From contig DYJM01000002.1 of the NCBI GenBank assembly GCA_020723125.1, forward strand, positions 1 to 60,015: 60,015 nt of DNA, read 5' to 3'. The translations under genes were made by a program, and so were the position numbers. Source of the stretch: Acidithiobacillus ferrivorans. Lineage in GTDB: Bacteria; Pseudomonadota; Gammaproteobacteria; Acidithiobacillales; Acidithiobacillaceae. Below, in pieces: positions 10,459-22,451 of this stretch (the stretch's first letter is position 1; each line of letters begins with the position of its first letter). The notes below the pieces were generated by a model. The model was not told the DNA's origin and did not search any database. It worked only from the letters and a program-made list of their open reading frames with translations.

Positions 10459-10489
10459 TGATTTTTTTGCCCAGGTTAGGGTGTTTGTC

Positions 10490-10695
10490 CTGGAAACGGC
10501 AGTGGGTCTGGTCTGGGGGCTTTGCAGCGACTTTTGTTTCGCGCCGTTGTTGTTCTTGGCGAAATCCTGCGCCCGTCAGGAGAGCTGTCTGAGCCCGCAG
10601 GGCGAGTTCTCTCCTGACAGCAGGATGAGCCATAGAACAACAGGCAAGGAACAATGGAGCAAAAAGCCCCAGACCAGACCCACTGCCGTTTCCAG
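10490..10695. repeat. ~206-bp long-hairpin (MITE/REP-like) repeat, copy 1
   Basis: Perfect 29-bp terminal inverted repeats (CTGGAAACGGCAGTGGGTCTGGTCTGGGG) with nested inner stems; the ~148-bp core differs from copy 2 at 4 positions. Confidence 0.92.
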
Positions 10696-18950: not shown

Positions 18951-19733
18951 TCAGCTGAATAGCAAAGCTGTAAGAATAAAATCAAGACCCAATACGGTCA
19001 GCGAGGCTGTCACCACACTCAGCGTCGTGGCATTCCCTACCCCTTCCGCCGTCGGCCGCGCCGTATATCCTTTCCAGGCGGCAATCCAGGTCACCACCAC
19101 ACCAAAACACAGGGCCTTGAACAAACCCGTCAGTATATCCCCTGAAAAGGTCACGTTAGACTGCATCTGCGCCCAGAAAGTCCCTCCATCCACCCCCAAT
19201 ACCGGCACGGAAATCAGATATCCGCCAAAAATCCCGACCAGATCGAAAATCGCGCAGAGTATGGGCACCGAGATGATCCCCGCCCAGAGACGGGGAGCCA
19301 CTACCCAGGCCAGGGGATTCACTGCCATCATTTCCATGGCGCTCAACTGCTCGGTGGCTTTCATCGAGCTGATTTCTGCAGTCAGCGCAGAGCCTGCACG
19401 CCCGGCAAATAACAAGGCGGTCAGCACTGGCCCCAGCTCGCGCAGCAACGACAAGGCAACCAAAGTCCCCAAAGCCGAAGTCGCCCCAAAACGCACCAGC
19501 GCGTAGTAACCCTGAAAGCCCAGAACCATTCCCGTAAAAAACGCCGCGACCACCATGAGAATCAGTGAACGCACACCAAAACCATAAATCTGCCGGAATA
19601 ATTGCTGAAAGCTGAAGTGCCGGTTAAACACACTGAGCAGGCTTGTCAGCAGAAAACGGCTGGCGGCACCCAGACCGGGAATGCTTTGCAGGGTACGGCG
19701 GCCCAATTGCGGAATAAATTCGAGCATGGCCAT
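18951..19733 (-). CDS. mlaE: ABC permease MlaE
   Basis: LLRELGPVLTALLFAGRAGSALTAEI motif. Confidence 0.95.
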   Translation of the reverse strand: MAMLEFIPQLGRRTLQSIPGLGAASRFLLTSLLSVFNRHFSFQQLFRQIYGFGVRSLILMVVAAFFTGMVLGFQGYYALVRFGATSALGTLVALSLLRELGPVLTALLFAGRAGSALTAEISSMKATEQLSAMEMMAVNPLAWVVAPRLWAGIISVPILCAIFDLVGIFGGYLISVPVLGVDGGTFWAQMQSNVTFSGDILTGLFKALCFGVVVTWIAAWKGYTARPTAEGVGNATTLSVVTASLTVLGLDFILTALLFS

Positions 19734-19736
19734 GGG

Positions 19737-20567
19737 CTATATCACCTCGCCAGCGGCATGGCTGTCCCGCAGCGCTGCGGCATAATCCTGGCGGGCCGGA
19801 TAATGGAAAGGCACCGGCCCATCCGGTTGCCCCCCCAGAAACTGCCGGGCCAGTGCGGAATCACTATTACGCAGTTCTGCCGGAGTCCCTTCAGCAATGA
19901 TTTTGCCGCCCGCCAGGATGAAACCATAATCGGCAATGGAAAAAGTTTCTTCCACATCATGGCTCACCAACACGCTGGTCGCTCCCAGGGCCGTATTCAG
20001 CCGTTTGATGAGTGAGGCAATAATGCCCACGCTGATGGGATCCAGCCCGGTAAAAGGTTCATCATAAAATATCAACATCGGATCCATGATGACCGCTCGG
20101 GCCAGGGCGATTCTGCGCCCCATTCCTCCCGAAAGCTCTGCCGGAAACAGACCCGCAGCGCCACGCAACCCCACCGCCTCCAGCTTCATCATGACCAGCT
20201 TGCGCAGTACGTTTTCCGGAAGGCGAAAATGCCGGCGCAGCGGAAAAGCCACGTTTTCAAAGGCGGTCAAATCGGTAAACAAAGCGCTGTGCTGAAATAA
20301 CATGCCCATCTGCCGACGCAGAGCATACATGGCATCCCCACTGAACTTTTGCAGATTCTGCCCGGCAATGCGAATCTGGCCGGATTGTGGACGCAAGGTT
20401 CCGGCCATCAGATTGAGCATGGTCGTCTTGCCCCCGCCACTGGCCCCCATCAGCGCAACAATGGCACCCCGAGGAATACGCATATCTACCCCCGCCAGCA
20501 CCGGGTGCGAGCCACGGGCAAAGCATACATTTTCCAGCTCCACAAGAGCCTCAGCCGCCATGAGCAT
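19737..20567 (-). CDS. mlaF: ABC ATPase MlaF
   Basis: GASGGGKTT, LSGGMGRR and YDEPFTGLDP; first gene of the mla operon. Confidence 0.94.
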   Translation of the reverse strand: MLMAAEALVELENVCFARGSHPVLAGVDMRIPRGAIVALMGASGGGKTTMLNLMAGTLRPQSGQIRIAGQNLQKFSGDAMYALRRQMGMLFQHSALFTDLTAFENVAFPLRRHFRLPENVLRKLVMMKLEAVGLRGAAGLFPAELSGGMGRRIALARAVIMDPMLIFYDEPFTGLDPISVGIIASLIKRLNTALGATSVLVSHDVEETFSIADYGFILAGGKIIAEGTPAELRNSDSALARQFLGGQPDGPVPFHYPARQDYAAALRDSHAAGEVI

Positions 20568-20676
20568 CCTTGTTCCATTATCAGCAGGGGTCAGAGTATA
20601 AACCGAACGGTCAACGGGGTACCAGAACAGGAGAAGACCGGCCTGCTGGCAGATCTAGAAAAACCTGAAAAATTCC

Positions 20677-20704
20677 TTGCATCCCATGCGGATAAGTGTA
20701 TAGT
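20677..20704 (+). promoter_or_regulatory. putative sigma-70 promoter for speD (TTGCAT-N16-TATAGT)
   Basis: Near-consensus -35/-10 hexamers directly 5' of the structured leader. Confidence 0.55.
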
Positions 20705-20710
20705 TCGCAT

Positions 20711-20875
20711 CTCGTTTCCACGGCACCGAAAGCAGTTACTAAGGGGGTCAGTCCTTAAGAGACTTGGAGCACGGCATGGCCACGTTCCAGCAAGGTAGGG
20801 CATAAAACCAAGTACTGTCTGGGGGTGCACGGGAGCTACTTCTTAACCTTTTTAACTTTGGTAAGGGGGGCACCT
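20711..20875 (+). promoter_or_regulatory. structured 5' leader of speD (candidate cis-regulatory RNA)
   Basis: Hand-identified nested stems forming a multiway junction, plus an anti-SD hairpin over the GGTAAGGG RBS. Confidence 0.5.
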
Positions 20876-21277
20876 ATGCGCTCGTTAGGACATCAAATCG
20901 TTGCAGACTTTTATCACTGTGACGGCAGTACCTTGTCTGATGTAGATTTTGTCACGGATGCCATGCTGGAGGCCGCTCGGCGCGCCAACTGCACCATTGT
21001 GACGCAAACCTTTCACCACTTTTCTCCCTATGGAGTCAGTGGTGCCGTAATCGTTGCGGAATCCCATCTGGCCATTCACACCTGGCCCGAATATGGTTAT
21101 GCAGCGGTAGATGTATTCACCTGTGGCGATATCATTCAGCCGGAAGATGCCTTGAATTACCTCAAGGAAGCTTTTGGTGCCGGCCAGGTCTCCACCATGG
21201 AGATGAAACGCGGGCAAGTAGACATGATGGGCATTCCTGCCCATGAACTGCGCGTCAAGCCGGTTCTCTGCGCCTGA
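20876..21277 (+). CDS. speD: S-adenosylmethionine decarboxylase proenzyme
   Basis: HHFSPYGVSG, AESHLAIHTWPE (pyruvoyl cleavage site) and DVFTCG; ATG at 20876. Confidence 0.96.
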   Translation: MRSLGHQIVADFYHCDGSTLSDVDFVTDAMLEAARRANCTIVTQTFHHFSPYGVSGAVIVAESHLAIHTWPEYGYAAVDVFTCGDIIQPEDALNYLKEAFGAGQVSTMEMKRGQVDMMGIPAHELRVKPVLCA

Positions 21278-21297
21278 AAGTACCTGTCACCACAGCG

Positions 21298-21329
21298 GGC
21301 GGGCTCTGAATACCGGAGCCCGCCTTTAT
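21298..21329 (+). terminator. GC-rich hairpin between speD and speE (weak terminator or stabilising stem)
   Basis: GGCGGGCTCTG/CGGAGCCCGCC stem followed by a short TTTAT tail. Confidence 0.55.
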
Positions 21330-21389
21330 CTCATTCCTCCGCAAAATCCACGCGGGGACATACCATTCCGGTCACAATGAGAGGCAATC

Positions 21390-22226
21390 ATGAGCACAGA
21401 ACTTTGGTATACCGAACGCTATGAAGAACATGGCGCGAGCTTGAGCCTGAAAATCCGCGAAGTACTGCATCGCGAACAAAGTCCGTACCAGACCATAGAA
21501 ATCTTTGAAACGGAACATTTTGGCACCCTCATGACTCTGGATGGTCTGGTGATGGTCACCGATCGTGACAATTATCTATACCACGAAATGATGAGCCATC
21601 CCGCCCTGTTTACCCACCCCGCACCCAAACGGGTGCTGATTATTGGCGGCGGAGATTGTGGCACCCTCCGGGAAGTGCTGCGTCACCCGGAAGTGGAAGA
21701 AGCCACGCAGGTCGAACTGGATGAAAGAGTGACCCGGGTTGCCGAACGCTTTTTTCCCGAGCTCTGCGAAAAAAATCATGATCCCCGCGCCCACTTTCAC
21801 TTTACAGATGGCATCGCCTGGATCGAGGAGGCCCCTGCCGGACGTTATGAGGTCATCATTGTGGATTCCACGGACCCGGTAGGACCTGCTGCCGGCCTGT
21901 TTGCCACCGATTTTTATACCGCCTGTCACCACGCTCTGGCCGAGCAGGGCGTTCTGGTTGCCCAATCCGAATCCCCGCTACTGCATGCTGACCTCATTCG
22001 CCAATGCCAACGCCGCATGGCAGAGGCAGGCTTTGAAGCGGTGAACAGCGTGTATTTTCCCCAGTTTTGCTACCCCTCCGGGTGGTGGAGCGGCACCTTG
22101 GGGCGCAAGGGTCTGAGCATGGACGCGTTTCGCGCTGAAGATGCCAAAGCCTTTACCGGCACCCACTACTACCACGCGGGTATGCAGCAGGCAGCACAGG
22201 TAGCCCCGGCTTTCCTGCTTGGCTAA
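21390..22226 (+). CDS. speE: spermidine synthase
   Basis: YHEMMSHP, LIIGGGDCG, DSTDPVGPA and YPSGWW motifs. Confidence 0.96.
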   Translation: MSTELWYTERYEEHGASLSLKIREVLHREQSPYQTIEIFETEHFGTLMTLDGLVMVTDRDNYLYHEMMSHPALFTHPAPKRVLIIGGGDCGTLREVLRHPEVEEATQVELDERVTRVAERFFPELCEKNHDPRAHFHFTDGIAWIEEAPAGRYEVIIVDSTDPVGPAAGLFATDFYTACHHALAEQGVLVAQSESPLLHADLIRQCQRRMAEAGFEAVNSVYFPQFCYPSGWWSGTLGRKGLSMDAFRAEDAKAFTGTHYYHAGMQQAAQVAPAFLLG

Positions 22227-22252: not shown

Positions 22253-22451
22253 CCTGAAAACGGCAGTTGCCGTGGGTGCTTTGCAGCGACCTTTGTTTCG
22301 AGCCGTTGTTGTTCTTGGCGAAATCCTGCGCCCGTCAGGAGAGCTGTTTGAGCCCGCAGGGCGAGTTCTCTCCTGACAGCAGGATGAGCCTTAGAACAAC
22401 AGGCAAGGAACAATGGAGCAAAAAGCACCCACGGCAACTGCCGTTTTCAGG
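22253..22451. repeat. ~199-bp long-hairpin repeat, copy 2
   Basis: Perfect 30-bp terminal inverted repeats (CCTGAAAACGGCAGTTGCCGTGGGTGCTTT); core nearly identical to 10519-10667. Confidence 0.92.

What the first reader, a model, noticed from the sequence alone, without database searches (positions are those of the whole stretch)
20677..20878. Candidate riboswitch-like leader controlling speD-speE
Seen: after a plausible sigma-70 promoter, a ~165-nt non-coding leader folds by eye into a closing stem TTCC-a-CG-GCACC (20716-20727) / GGTGC-a-CG-GGAG (20824-20835), a stem GCAGT-t-ACT/AGTACTGT, and three inner hairpins (TAAGGG/TCCTTA, TGGAGC/GTTCCA, GGT/ACC). Downstream, CTTAACC can pair with GGTAAG at the RBS, and GGTGC can alternatively pair with GCACC just before the ATG. 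Known: polyamine genes carry cis-regulatory RNAs elsewhere (spermidine-sensing SAM-I variants, ldcC and speF motifs). It has some SAM-I-like words (AAGAG, GGAG, TGGCC, CCAGCAA) but no proper P3, so I do not assign it. Inference: a possibly new polyamine/SAM-responsive translational switch.
Basis: partly seen in the sequence, partly recalled or inferred. Interest (0 to 1): 0.7.

Follow-up and report, generated by a model that had tools for sequence, protein, structure and literature searches.

The report
Uncatalogued RNA switch candidate before speD
A strongly conserved untranslated RNA that matches no catalogued family sits in front of the spermidine-making genes of two orders of sulfur- and iron-oxidising bacteria and their kin; it is predicted to fold over the ribosome-binding site and is likely a feedback switch for polyamine synthesis, though what it senses is untested.

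Summary
The leader is real. Two blocks (20717-20726, 20825-20841) are nearly invariant in 36 distinct leaders from two orders; every complete match lies directly before a Bacillus-type speD, one copy per genome, about 12 nt behind a conserved sigma-70-like promoter. The leader stays 96% identical where speD four-fold sites are 55-59% identical. The blocks are predicted to form a helix with two bulged purines (P1) around an insert of 23-100 nt. Directly behind lies a conserved helix that pairs the Shine-Dalgarno sequence (P3). No Rfam family matches. The SAM-I-like words, two of three inner hairpins and the GCACC-ATG alternative are lineage-specific or unresolved. Covariation is thin (about three events, none in P1), all carriers form one SpeD clade, and no shared ON fold was found. 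Best reading: a new cis-acting translational regulator, likely an OFF riboswitch for spermidine (0.42); a protein-bound operator or another ligand remain open. The scan had not noted this motif; it has noted other structured speD leaders in other lineages.

The parts
20677..20682 (+). -35 hexamer TTGCAT of the inferred sigma-70 promoter
   Evidence: TTGCAT in 50 of 54 distinct upstream stretches, single-base variants in the other 4; not found by the consensus scan
20699..20704 (+). -10 hexamer TATAGT; start of transcription inferred near 20710-20712
   Evidence: TATAGT/TATCAT/TATGAT/TATAAT/TAGAAT in 54 of 54, 8-17 nt before P1; start site not mapped
20717..20726 (+). 5' strand of P1 (TCC-A-CG-GCAC), bulged A at 20720
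   Evidence: 8 of 9 P1 pairs never vary in 36 leaders, one C-to-U wobble; same helix from RNAalifold
20731..20740 (+). 5' strand of P2 (AG-CAGT...), after a variable internal loop
   Evidence: two pairs with changes on both sides (A-U/G-C 15/21, U-A/C-G 11/16), 94.8% of cells paired
20741..20810 (+). lineage-specific insert; holds the GGAGC/GTTCC hairpin (20766-20770/20784-20788) and the SAM-I-like words; the rest of its fold is unresolved
   Evidence: gap between the P1 strands is 23-100 nt; reduced to a short loop in L057-L060 and L065; hairpin paired in 10 of 10 family-f1 inserts with all loop indels inside it
20811..20820 (+). 3' strand of P2 with a bulged base at 20818
   Evidence: compact homologues fold into this rod as MFE in 4 of 4 tested
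20825..20834 (+). 3' strand of P1 (GTGC-A-CG-GGA), bulged A at 20829
   Evidence: invariant in 35 of 36 leaders; single copy in the window and genome
20835..20848 (+). anti-Shine-Dalgarno strand of P3 (conserved part GCT-A-CTTC 20835-20842; family-specific extension to 20848)
   Evidence: 7 pairs, 99.2% of cells paired, U-G/U-A exchange in 14 of 36
20860..20871 (+). Shine-Dalgarno strand of P3 (GGGGGGC at 20865-20871)
   Evidence: cost of opening it 8.1 kcal/mol, reached by 11 of 260 control starts
20876..21277 (+). speD, Bacillus-type S-adenosylmethionine decarboxylase proenzyme, 133 aa
   Evidence: TIGR03330 155.9 bits, cut-off 75.65
21390..22226 (+). speE, spermidine synthase / polyamine aminopropyltransferase
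   Evidence: TIGR00417 264.5 bits, cut-off 249.55; NF002010 368.4, cut-off 260

Best explanation
This is a conserved 5' leader RNA of speD that is predicted to block the gene's own ribosome-binding site, and it likely works as an OFF riboswitch that senses spermidine or a close polyamine. Shown: conservation far above neutral sites, fixed position between a conserved promoter and speD, and complementarity of two adjacent helices (P1 and P3) in all 36 leaders. Inferred: the transcript starts a few bases before P1; P1, with two bulged purines around a CG/CG pair, stacks directly on P3 (no unpaired base between them; a third bulged purine lies three pairs into P3); a bound polyamine would stabilise this P1-P3 stack, keep the Shine-Dalgarno sequence paired and lower SpeD synthesis (and that of the genes behind it), which is end-product feedback. 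The long insert is dispensable for the core and would only tune stability or add lineage-specific contacts.
For: Purifying selection: leader 96% identical vs 55-59% at four-fold sites and 51-62% further upstream. Core complete in 25 of 26 same-order relatives, the 26th cut by a contig end, and in 25 of 103 genomes of a second order, one copy each. Gene association: 14 of 15 full-core matches of the genome scan and 10 of 11 of the metagenome scan have speD behind them, the other two end at contig edges; the genes behind speD differ (speE; arginine decarboxylase + speE; none) but all belong to spermidine synthesis. Structure: 98.3% of cells paired against 29-58% for slid controls, 3 pairs with changes on both sides, G-U/A-U exchanges that fit the sense strand; RNAalifold finds P1 and P3 unaided; all large indels fall inside the P2 loop and the P3 loop; P3 is extended by U-A pairs in one order and A-U pairs in the other. 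P1+P3 is within 2 kcal/mol of the MFE in 25 of 36 leaders. Precedent: spermidine-sensing OFF switches before speD/speE exist (PMC10853860, passages and sections 5, 7, 8).
Against: No binding or expression data. P1 shows no compensatory change (8 of 9 pairs invariant), and the 3 covarying pairs are about 3 evolutionary events within one SpeD clade (one change on the tree, support 80/76). Folding z-scores are mostly weak (+0.76 to -3.33; window -0.24); P1 probability is 0.03 or less in 9 of 36 leaders. No shared ON fold: the GGAGCU segment takes different partners in different lineages. In family f1 the OFF fold is already the MFE by 8.1-8.6 kcal/mol without ligand, which is awkward for a ligand-stabilised OFF switch, although the SD:anti-SD duplex is strong (-11.7). 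The internal loop between P1 and P2 varies, and all three bulged As tolerate G in some leader, so there are few unpaired invariant bases for a specific pocket. The arm-swap test favoured the cognate P3 partner in only 12 of 19. Close SpeD orthologues in family f77 do without the motif (0 of 8).
Confidence: 0.42

Rival explanations
1. The same P1-P3 leader is an operator for a protein (SpeD, SpeE or another RNA-binding regulator) that clamps the SD helix; the self-symmetric CACGG/CACGG helix with two bulged As would suit a dimeric protein.
For: Invariant paired bases with few invariant unpaired ones fit shape-and-groove recognition; the pan motif, a stem with two conserved bulged As, was proposed as a protein-binding RNA (PMC2864571 section 23); the motif follows one SpeD clade.
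Against: No candidate regulator gene travels with the locus: upstream neighbours differ between lineages; single copy, not tandem as in pan.
Confidence: 0.2
2. It is a riboswitch, but for another pathway metabolite (dcSAM, SAM, MTA, agmatine or putrescine), possibly an ON switch that opens P3 when substrate is available.
For: The only constant gene is speD, whose substrate and product are SAM and dcSAM; in family f1 the unliganded prediction is OFF, as expected of an ON switch.
Against: No similarity to any SAM or SAH family in Rfam; no conserved ON fold; a simple rod offers few contacts for a nucleoside cofactor (inference).
Confidence: 0.17
3. It is a constitutive damper or stability element: P3 sets a low translation rate for SpeD and P1 protects the 5' end, with at most a non-specific response to polycations.
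For: SD opening cost is in the top 4-5% of control starts (11 of 260); P1 starts within a few bases of the inferred start site.
Against: A plain damper needs pairing, not sequence: it does not explain 27 near-invariant bases kept while four-fold sites fall to 30-46% identity between orders and families.
Confidence: 0.13
4. It is a pH-sensitive register switch: P1 can slip by one base into a helix with tandem A-C pairs that protonation would stabilise, capturing the first bases of the anti-SD strand and raising spermidine synthesis under acid stress.
For: The slipped register is the predicted SD-open fold in 12 of 13 family-f1 leaders; the one leader that changes both bulged As (L059) turns both A-C mismatches into G-C pairs; speD/speE are described as acid-stress genes (PMC8886135 passages).
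Against: The two outer pairs that would capture the anti-SD bases hold in only 27 and 20 of 36 leaders; L059 is one event and fits the bulged register as well; the neutrophilic relatives carry the same core.
Confidence: 0.05
5. It is a SAM-I-derived aptamer, a leader peptide, or a DNA operator.
For: SAM-I-like words are present in the window, and the GTG at 20825 is in frame with speD here.
Against: The words sit in the dispensable insert (5-13 of 36); no SAM-I model match at the locus; block spacing and GTG-to-ATG distance take all three frames (17/14/5 and 20/9/7); spacing of 23-100 nt and G-U exchanges do not fit a DNA operator.
Confidence: 0.03

Closest known systems
Spermidine riboswitch, a SAM-I variant (PMC10853860; passages and sections 5, 7, 8 read)
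   Same: Lies before speD/speE and related polyamine genes; OFF logic; rare and narrowly distributed.
   Different: Four-stem junction of SAM-I type in Gram-positive genera, acting by transcription termination (figure legend seen); this motif is a bulged rod stacked on an anti-SD helix in Gammaproteobacteria, with no SAM-I model match.
ldcC motif (PMC5737381, one passage read) and speF motif (mentioned in PMC7266159, one passage)
   Same: Orphan candidate RNAs before arginine, ornithine or SAM decarboxylase genes.
   Different: No Rfam match at E up to 10 in the window or in 11 homologous loci; that both motifs are Rfam families is recalled, not checked.
odc1 motif (PMC8632094, section 19 read)
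   Same: Polyamine-pathway leader whose ribosome-binding site is held in a stem.
   Different: Has a pseudoknot and a conserved 11-residue uORF in Alphaproteobacteria; here no conserved reading frame.
pan motif (PMC2864571, section 23 read; RF01749)
   Same: A stem interrupted by two conserved bulged As in a biosynthetic leader.
   Different: pan RNAs are mostly tandem and precede pantothenate genes; RF01749 matches 0 of 5 carrier genomes.
THF-II riboswitch / folE motif (PMC6800512, passages read)
   Same: Simple rod-like translational OFF switch limited to one order, showing that such a small architecture can be a true aptamer.
   Different: [quoted passage not shown]

Membership tests
SAM-I / spermidine (SAM-I variant) riboswitch | Four-stem junction P1-P4 | tested here: not met
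   Consensus is a rod plus an adjacent helix; compact members have only 23-24 nt between the P1 strands
SAM-I / spermidine (SAM-I variant) riboswitch | Match to the SAM-I covariance model | tested here: not met
   No match at E up to 10 in window 19500-22000 or 11 homologous loci; RF00162 has no match over the cut-off in 5 carrier genomes and none at all in G000
SAM-I / spermidine (SAM-I variant) riboswitch | Conserved core words of the aptamer | tested here: not met
   AAGAG 12, TGGCC 5, CCAGCAA 13 of 36; three recalled SAM-I words 0 of 36
SAM-I / spermidine (SAM-I variant) riboswitch | Association with polyamine synthesis genes | tested here: met
   speD in every complete case, speE and arginine decarboxylase behind it
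SAM-I / spermidine (SAM-I variant) riboswitch | Selective spermidine binding | not testable with these tools
   needs in-line probing
pan motif (RF01749) | Stem interrupted by two conserved bulged As | tested here: met
   both bulges are A in 35 of 36 leaders, G in one; the helix itself is predicted
pan motif (RF01749) | Tandem copies before pantothenate genes; model match | tested here: not met
   single copy before speD; 0 of 5 genomes match RF01749
ldcC and speF motifs | Match to their covariance models | tested here: not met
   no such hit among 4227 families; their presence in Rfam is recalled
Translational riboswitch (general class) | Conserved non-coding element in the 5' leader of a metabolic gene | tested here: met
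Translational riboswitch (general class) | Expression platform able to sequester the RBS | tested here: met
   P3 complementarity, 99.2% of cells paired; formation in the cell untested
Translational riboswitch (general class) | Secondary structure backed by covariation | tested here: inconclusive
   3 of 22 pairs change on both sides (29 of 500 shuffles as high); none in P1
Translational riboswitch (general class) | Two mutually exclusive folds shared by all members | tested here: inconclusive
   SD-open folds differ between lineages
Translational riboswitch (general class) | Direct, protein-free ligand binding that changes expression | not testable with these tools
   needs probing and reporter assays
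Leader-peptide attenuator | Conserved uORF frame | tested here: not met
   distances fall in all three frames

The most novel reading that the evidence does not exclude
A new riboswitch class, unrelated to SAM-I, in which a minimal bulged helix of about 45 nt stacked on the anti-SD helix reads spermidine or decarboxylated SAM directly: the second polyamine-pathway riboswitch architecture and the first in Gram-negative bacteria, with a natural 53-nt version ready for probing; in its boldest form the helix also slips register through protonated A-C pairs and so couples polyamine synthesis to cytoplasmic pH.
Probability: 0.45. Interest if true: 0.82.

Novelty: new variant of a known kind. Interest (0 to 1): 0.64.

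Why it matters
Only one validated polyamine riboswitch class was found in the papers searched, a rare SAM-I variant of Gram-positive bacteria, and its authors call earlier claims unconvincing (PMC10853860, section 5). An unrelated, small, invariant RNA tied only to speD would show a second way in which RNA reads polyamine-pathway flux, or give a first dcSAM sensor. Natural compact versions make the test cheap. It would also explain how bioleaching acidophiles regulate spermidine synthesis, which is counted among their acid defences (PMC8886135, passages). The reach is limited: one SpeD clade in two orders.

Tried and rejected
Rfam scans of the window and 11 homologous loci: only chance hits, none on the motif. 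Single-sequence folding: no better than shuffles. Consensus promoter/terminator scan: nothing; no intrinsic terminator, so transcription attenuation is not favoured. Search for the motif at other genes: genome scan 119 loci, 104 lacking the 3' extension and speD, many in one actinobacterial coding region (the scan covered 41 of 64 parts and inserts up to 77 nt only; my open-frame filter did not separate true from chance hits, 11 of 15 vs 101 of 104); metagenome scan 14 of 25 chance; viral contigs 25 matches to the 3' block, none above 8 bits with model R1; plasmids none; own speA locus none. Wider samples: 400 class and 400 phylum genomes gave few close SpeD homologues; leaders of families f77 (0 of 8), f164 (0 of 1) and 13 more distant speD loci lack the motif. 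uORF and in-frame GTG at 20825: rejected. RNA-seq contigs of relatives: one contig spans 20729-22252 and another starts at 20739, but one crosses the promoter (20520-20795) and the others break at various places; contigs cannot show a start or a level, so they are not used as evidence beyond presence of the leader in RNA libraries. Arm-swap test of P3: weak (12 of 19). Resemblances to glycine, guanidine, lysine and SAM-III aptamers were considered from memory and dropped for lack of any model match.

Full report
Setting. The leader lies between mlaF (19737-20567, minus strand; best match NF008809, below its cut-off) and speD (20876-21277, TIGR03330) followed by speE (21390-22226, TIGR00417). 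Two named records that carry the motif are labelled Acidiferrobacter sp. and Acidiferrobacteraceae (L197, L190), which names the second order.

Observation. The MFE holds the closing stem, the second stem, the GGAGC/GTTCC hairpin and a hairpin over the RBS, but is no more stable than shuffles (z -0.24). Rfam has no match. On its own the fold would be unremarkable.

Conservation. A DNA search of 41 genomes matched all 24 of family f1 and both of family f2. The match begins at the promoter. The two-block core is complete in 25 of these 26 relatives; one is cut by a contig end. In five diverged congeners the leader is 96% identical to the window while four-fold sites of speD are 55-59% and the DNA further upstream 51-62% identical; in two other genera 86-87% against 52-56%. 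In f2 the middle of the leader is a different sequence of similar length, but both blocks persist. A protein search of 400 class genomes found three further close SpeD homologues, one with the motif; its order then gave 24 leaders with the motif among 26 genomes with close SpeD, the other two being cut by contig ends. Model R1, built from these sequences, found one copy in 25 of 103 genomes of that order and one in the own genome; these hits include the training set, so they show copy number and place, not independent discovery. The motif is absent from 8 of 8 close orthologues in family f77, which mostly have short leaders, and from f164. On a SpeD tree of 31 rows (21 with, 10 without) the motif needs one change (support 80/76): one origin, inherited with the gene.

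Gene association. Pattern scans of genomes (119 loci, 41 of 64 parts scanned, inserts up to 77 nt) and metagenomes (25 loci) gave 15 and 11 full-core matches; 14 and 10 have speD directly behind, the other two end at contig edges. No full match was seen before any other gene. Behind speD come speE, or a pyruvoyl arginine decarboxylase and speE, or a convergent speA.

Anatomy. A -35 and a -10 hexamer with 16-17 nt spacing are present in 54 of 54 distinct upstream stretches, 8-17 nt before P1, so the RNA is inferred to start near 20711 and the whole structure to be transcribed. On 36 distinct leaders (alignment A2) RNAalifold predicts P1 (20717-20726 with 20825-20834, bulged purines at 20720 and 20829) and, with no gap, P3 (20835-20842 with the SD strand 20865-20871, bulged purine at 20838). 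Adding P2, 98.3% of cells pair against 29-58% in slid controls; 3 of 22 pairs change on both sides, which 29 of 500 shuffles reach; P1 has 8 invariant pairs and one wobble. The gap between the P1 strands runs from 23 to 100 nt and compact versions fold into the P1-P2 rod as MFE in 4 of 4 tested, two with z near -3.9. P3 is extended by U-A pairs in f1 and by A-U pairs in the second order, whose P3 loop holds a further nested stem with G-C/A-U exchange. The covariation amounts to about three or four events, so the structure rests as much on indel placement and wobble exchanges as on compensatory change.

What does not hold. The SAM-I-like words lie in the insert and occur in 5-13 of 36 leaders; three recalled SAM-I core words occur in none; RF00162 does not match the locus. 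TAAGGG/TCCTTA competes with AGTC/GA[C/T]T, with GTCCT/AGGGC (consensus fold) and with CCTTA/CAAGG (MFE); I could not decide among them. GGT/ACC competes with a GG/CC extension of P2. The GCACC-ATG alternative exists in 13 of 40 leaders. No reading frame is conserved.

Mechanism. The P1+P3 state is within 2 kcal/mol of the MFE in 25 of 36 leaders and 2.5-11.6 above it in 11; freeing the SD costs 8.1-8.6 kcal/mol in f1 and -5.2 to +4.6 elsewhere. In the window the cost is reached by 11 of 260 control starts sampled from 1026 heuristic SD-led starts (median 3.6), while the SD:anti-SD duplex is -11.7. The leader is thus built to occlude its RBS, and near balance outside f1. I commit to an OFF switch in which spermidine stabilises the P1-P3 stack: every associated gene makes spermidine, spermidine is reported to act at bulged helices of mRNA, and the validated spermidine riboswitch is an OFF switch before the same genes (PMC10853860, sections 5 and 8 and passages). 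Ligand, sign and absence of a protein partner are all inferred. Against it stand the lack of a shared ON fold, few invariant unpaired bases and the stable default OFF fold in f1. Rivals are a protein-bound operator like the pan motif, another ligand, a constitutive damper, and a pH-driven slip of P1 into a register with tandem A-C pairs.

Expression. RNA-seq contigs of relatives cover the leader, one running from 20729 through speD and speE; another crosses the promoter. They show presence only.

Novelty. No Rfam match. Eight paper searches listed nothing on such a motif; term searches in the main texts of PMC11109978, PMC8632094, PMC5737381, PMC2864571 and PMC7266159 found no speD motif and, in the four where it was asked, no Acidithiobacillus; bioRxiv 10.1101/538918 (passages) names no such RNA. 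One supplement of PMC8632094 had no hit; those of PMC11109978 and PMC5737381 could not be read and subscription papers are not covered, so an earlier listing cannot be excluded. The scan's own notes hold no look-alike but several other structured speD leaders in other lineages, which I did not test.

Verdict. A real, previously uncatalogued cis-regulatory RNA family; translational control is likely (about 0.85), direct metabolite sensing about even, spermidine the best single guess. Interest 0.64.

Noticed in passing
window 22253-22451: A 199-nt element with perfect 30-nt terminal inverted repeats just behind speE, with many 88-99% identical copies in the genome (38 BLAST pieces of 170 nt or more, about half being self-inverted matches; a second copy at window 10488-10695): a MITE-like repeat. 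RNA contigs have loose ends at its border.
   Followed up: partly
window 20838: In one poly(A)-type RNA run a single low-depth contig carries an A-rich tail behind 20838, just 3' of P1; similar tails occur at 20890 and 20988. Could be a decay intermediate stalled at P1; too thin to use.
   Followed up: no
window 21278-21389: The speD-speE spacer holds a GC-rich inverted repeat followed by TTT (about 21295-21327, seen by eye), a possible attenuating or processing hairpin that would let speD and speE be expressed unequally.
   Followed up: no
L071:1927-2403, L077:1935-2414: Acidiferrobacterales carry an archaeal-type pyruvoyl-dependent arginine decarboxylase (TIGR00286 above cut-off) between speD and speE.
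   Followed up: partly
window 20741-20810: The insert is itself almost invariant across family f1 although absent elsewhere, so it may have gained a function of its own; its fold is unresolved.
   Followed up: partly
L041, L047, L048, L050 (upstream of distant speD homologues): These four leaders share a different conserved word string (around TAGCCCAA-CGT) seen by eye, possibly another speD leader motif.
   Followed up: no
L258 upstream of speD: One f77 genome has a longer speD leader of unrelated sequence while its relatives have short ones.
   Followed up: no
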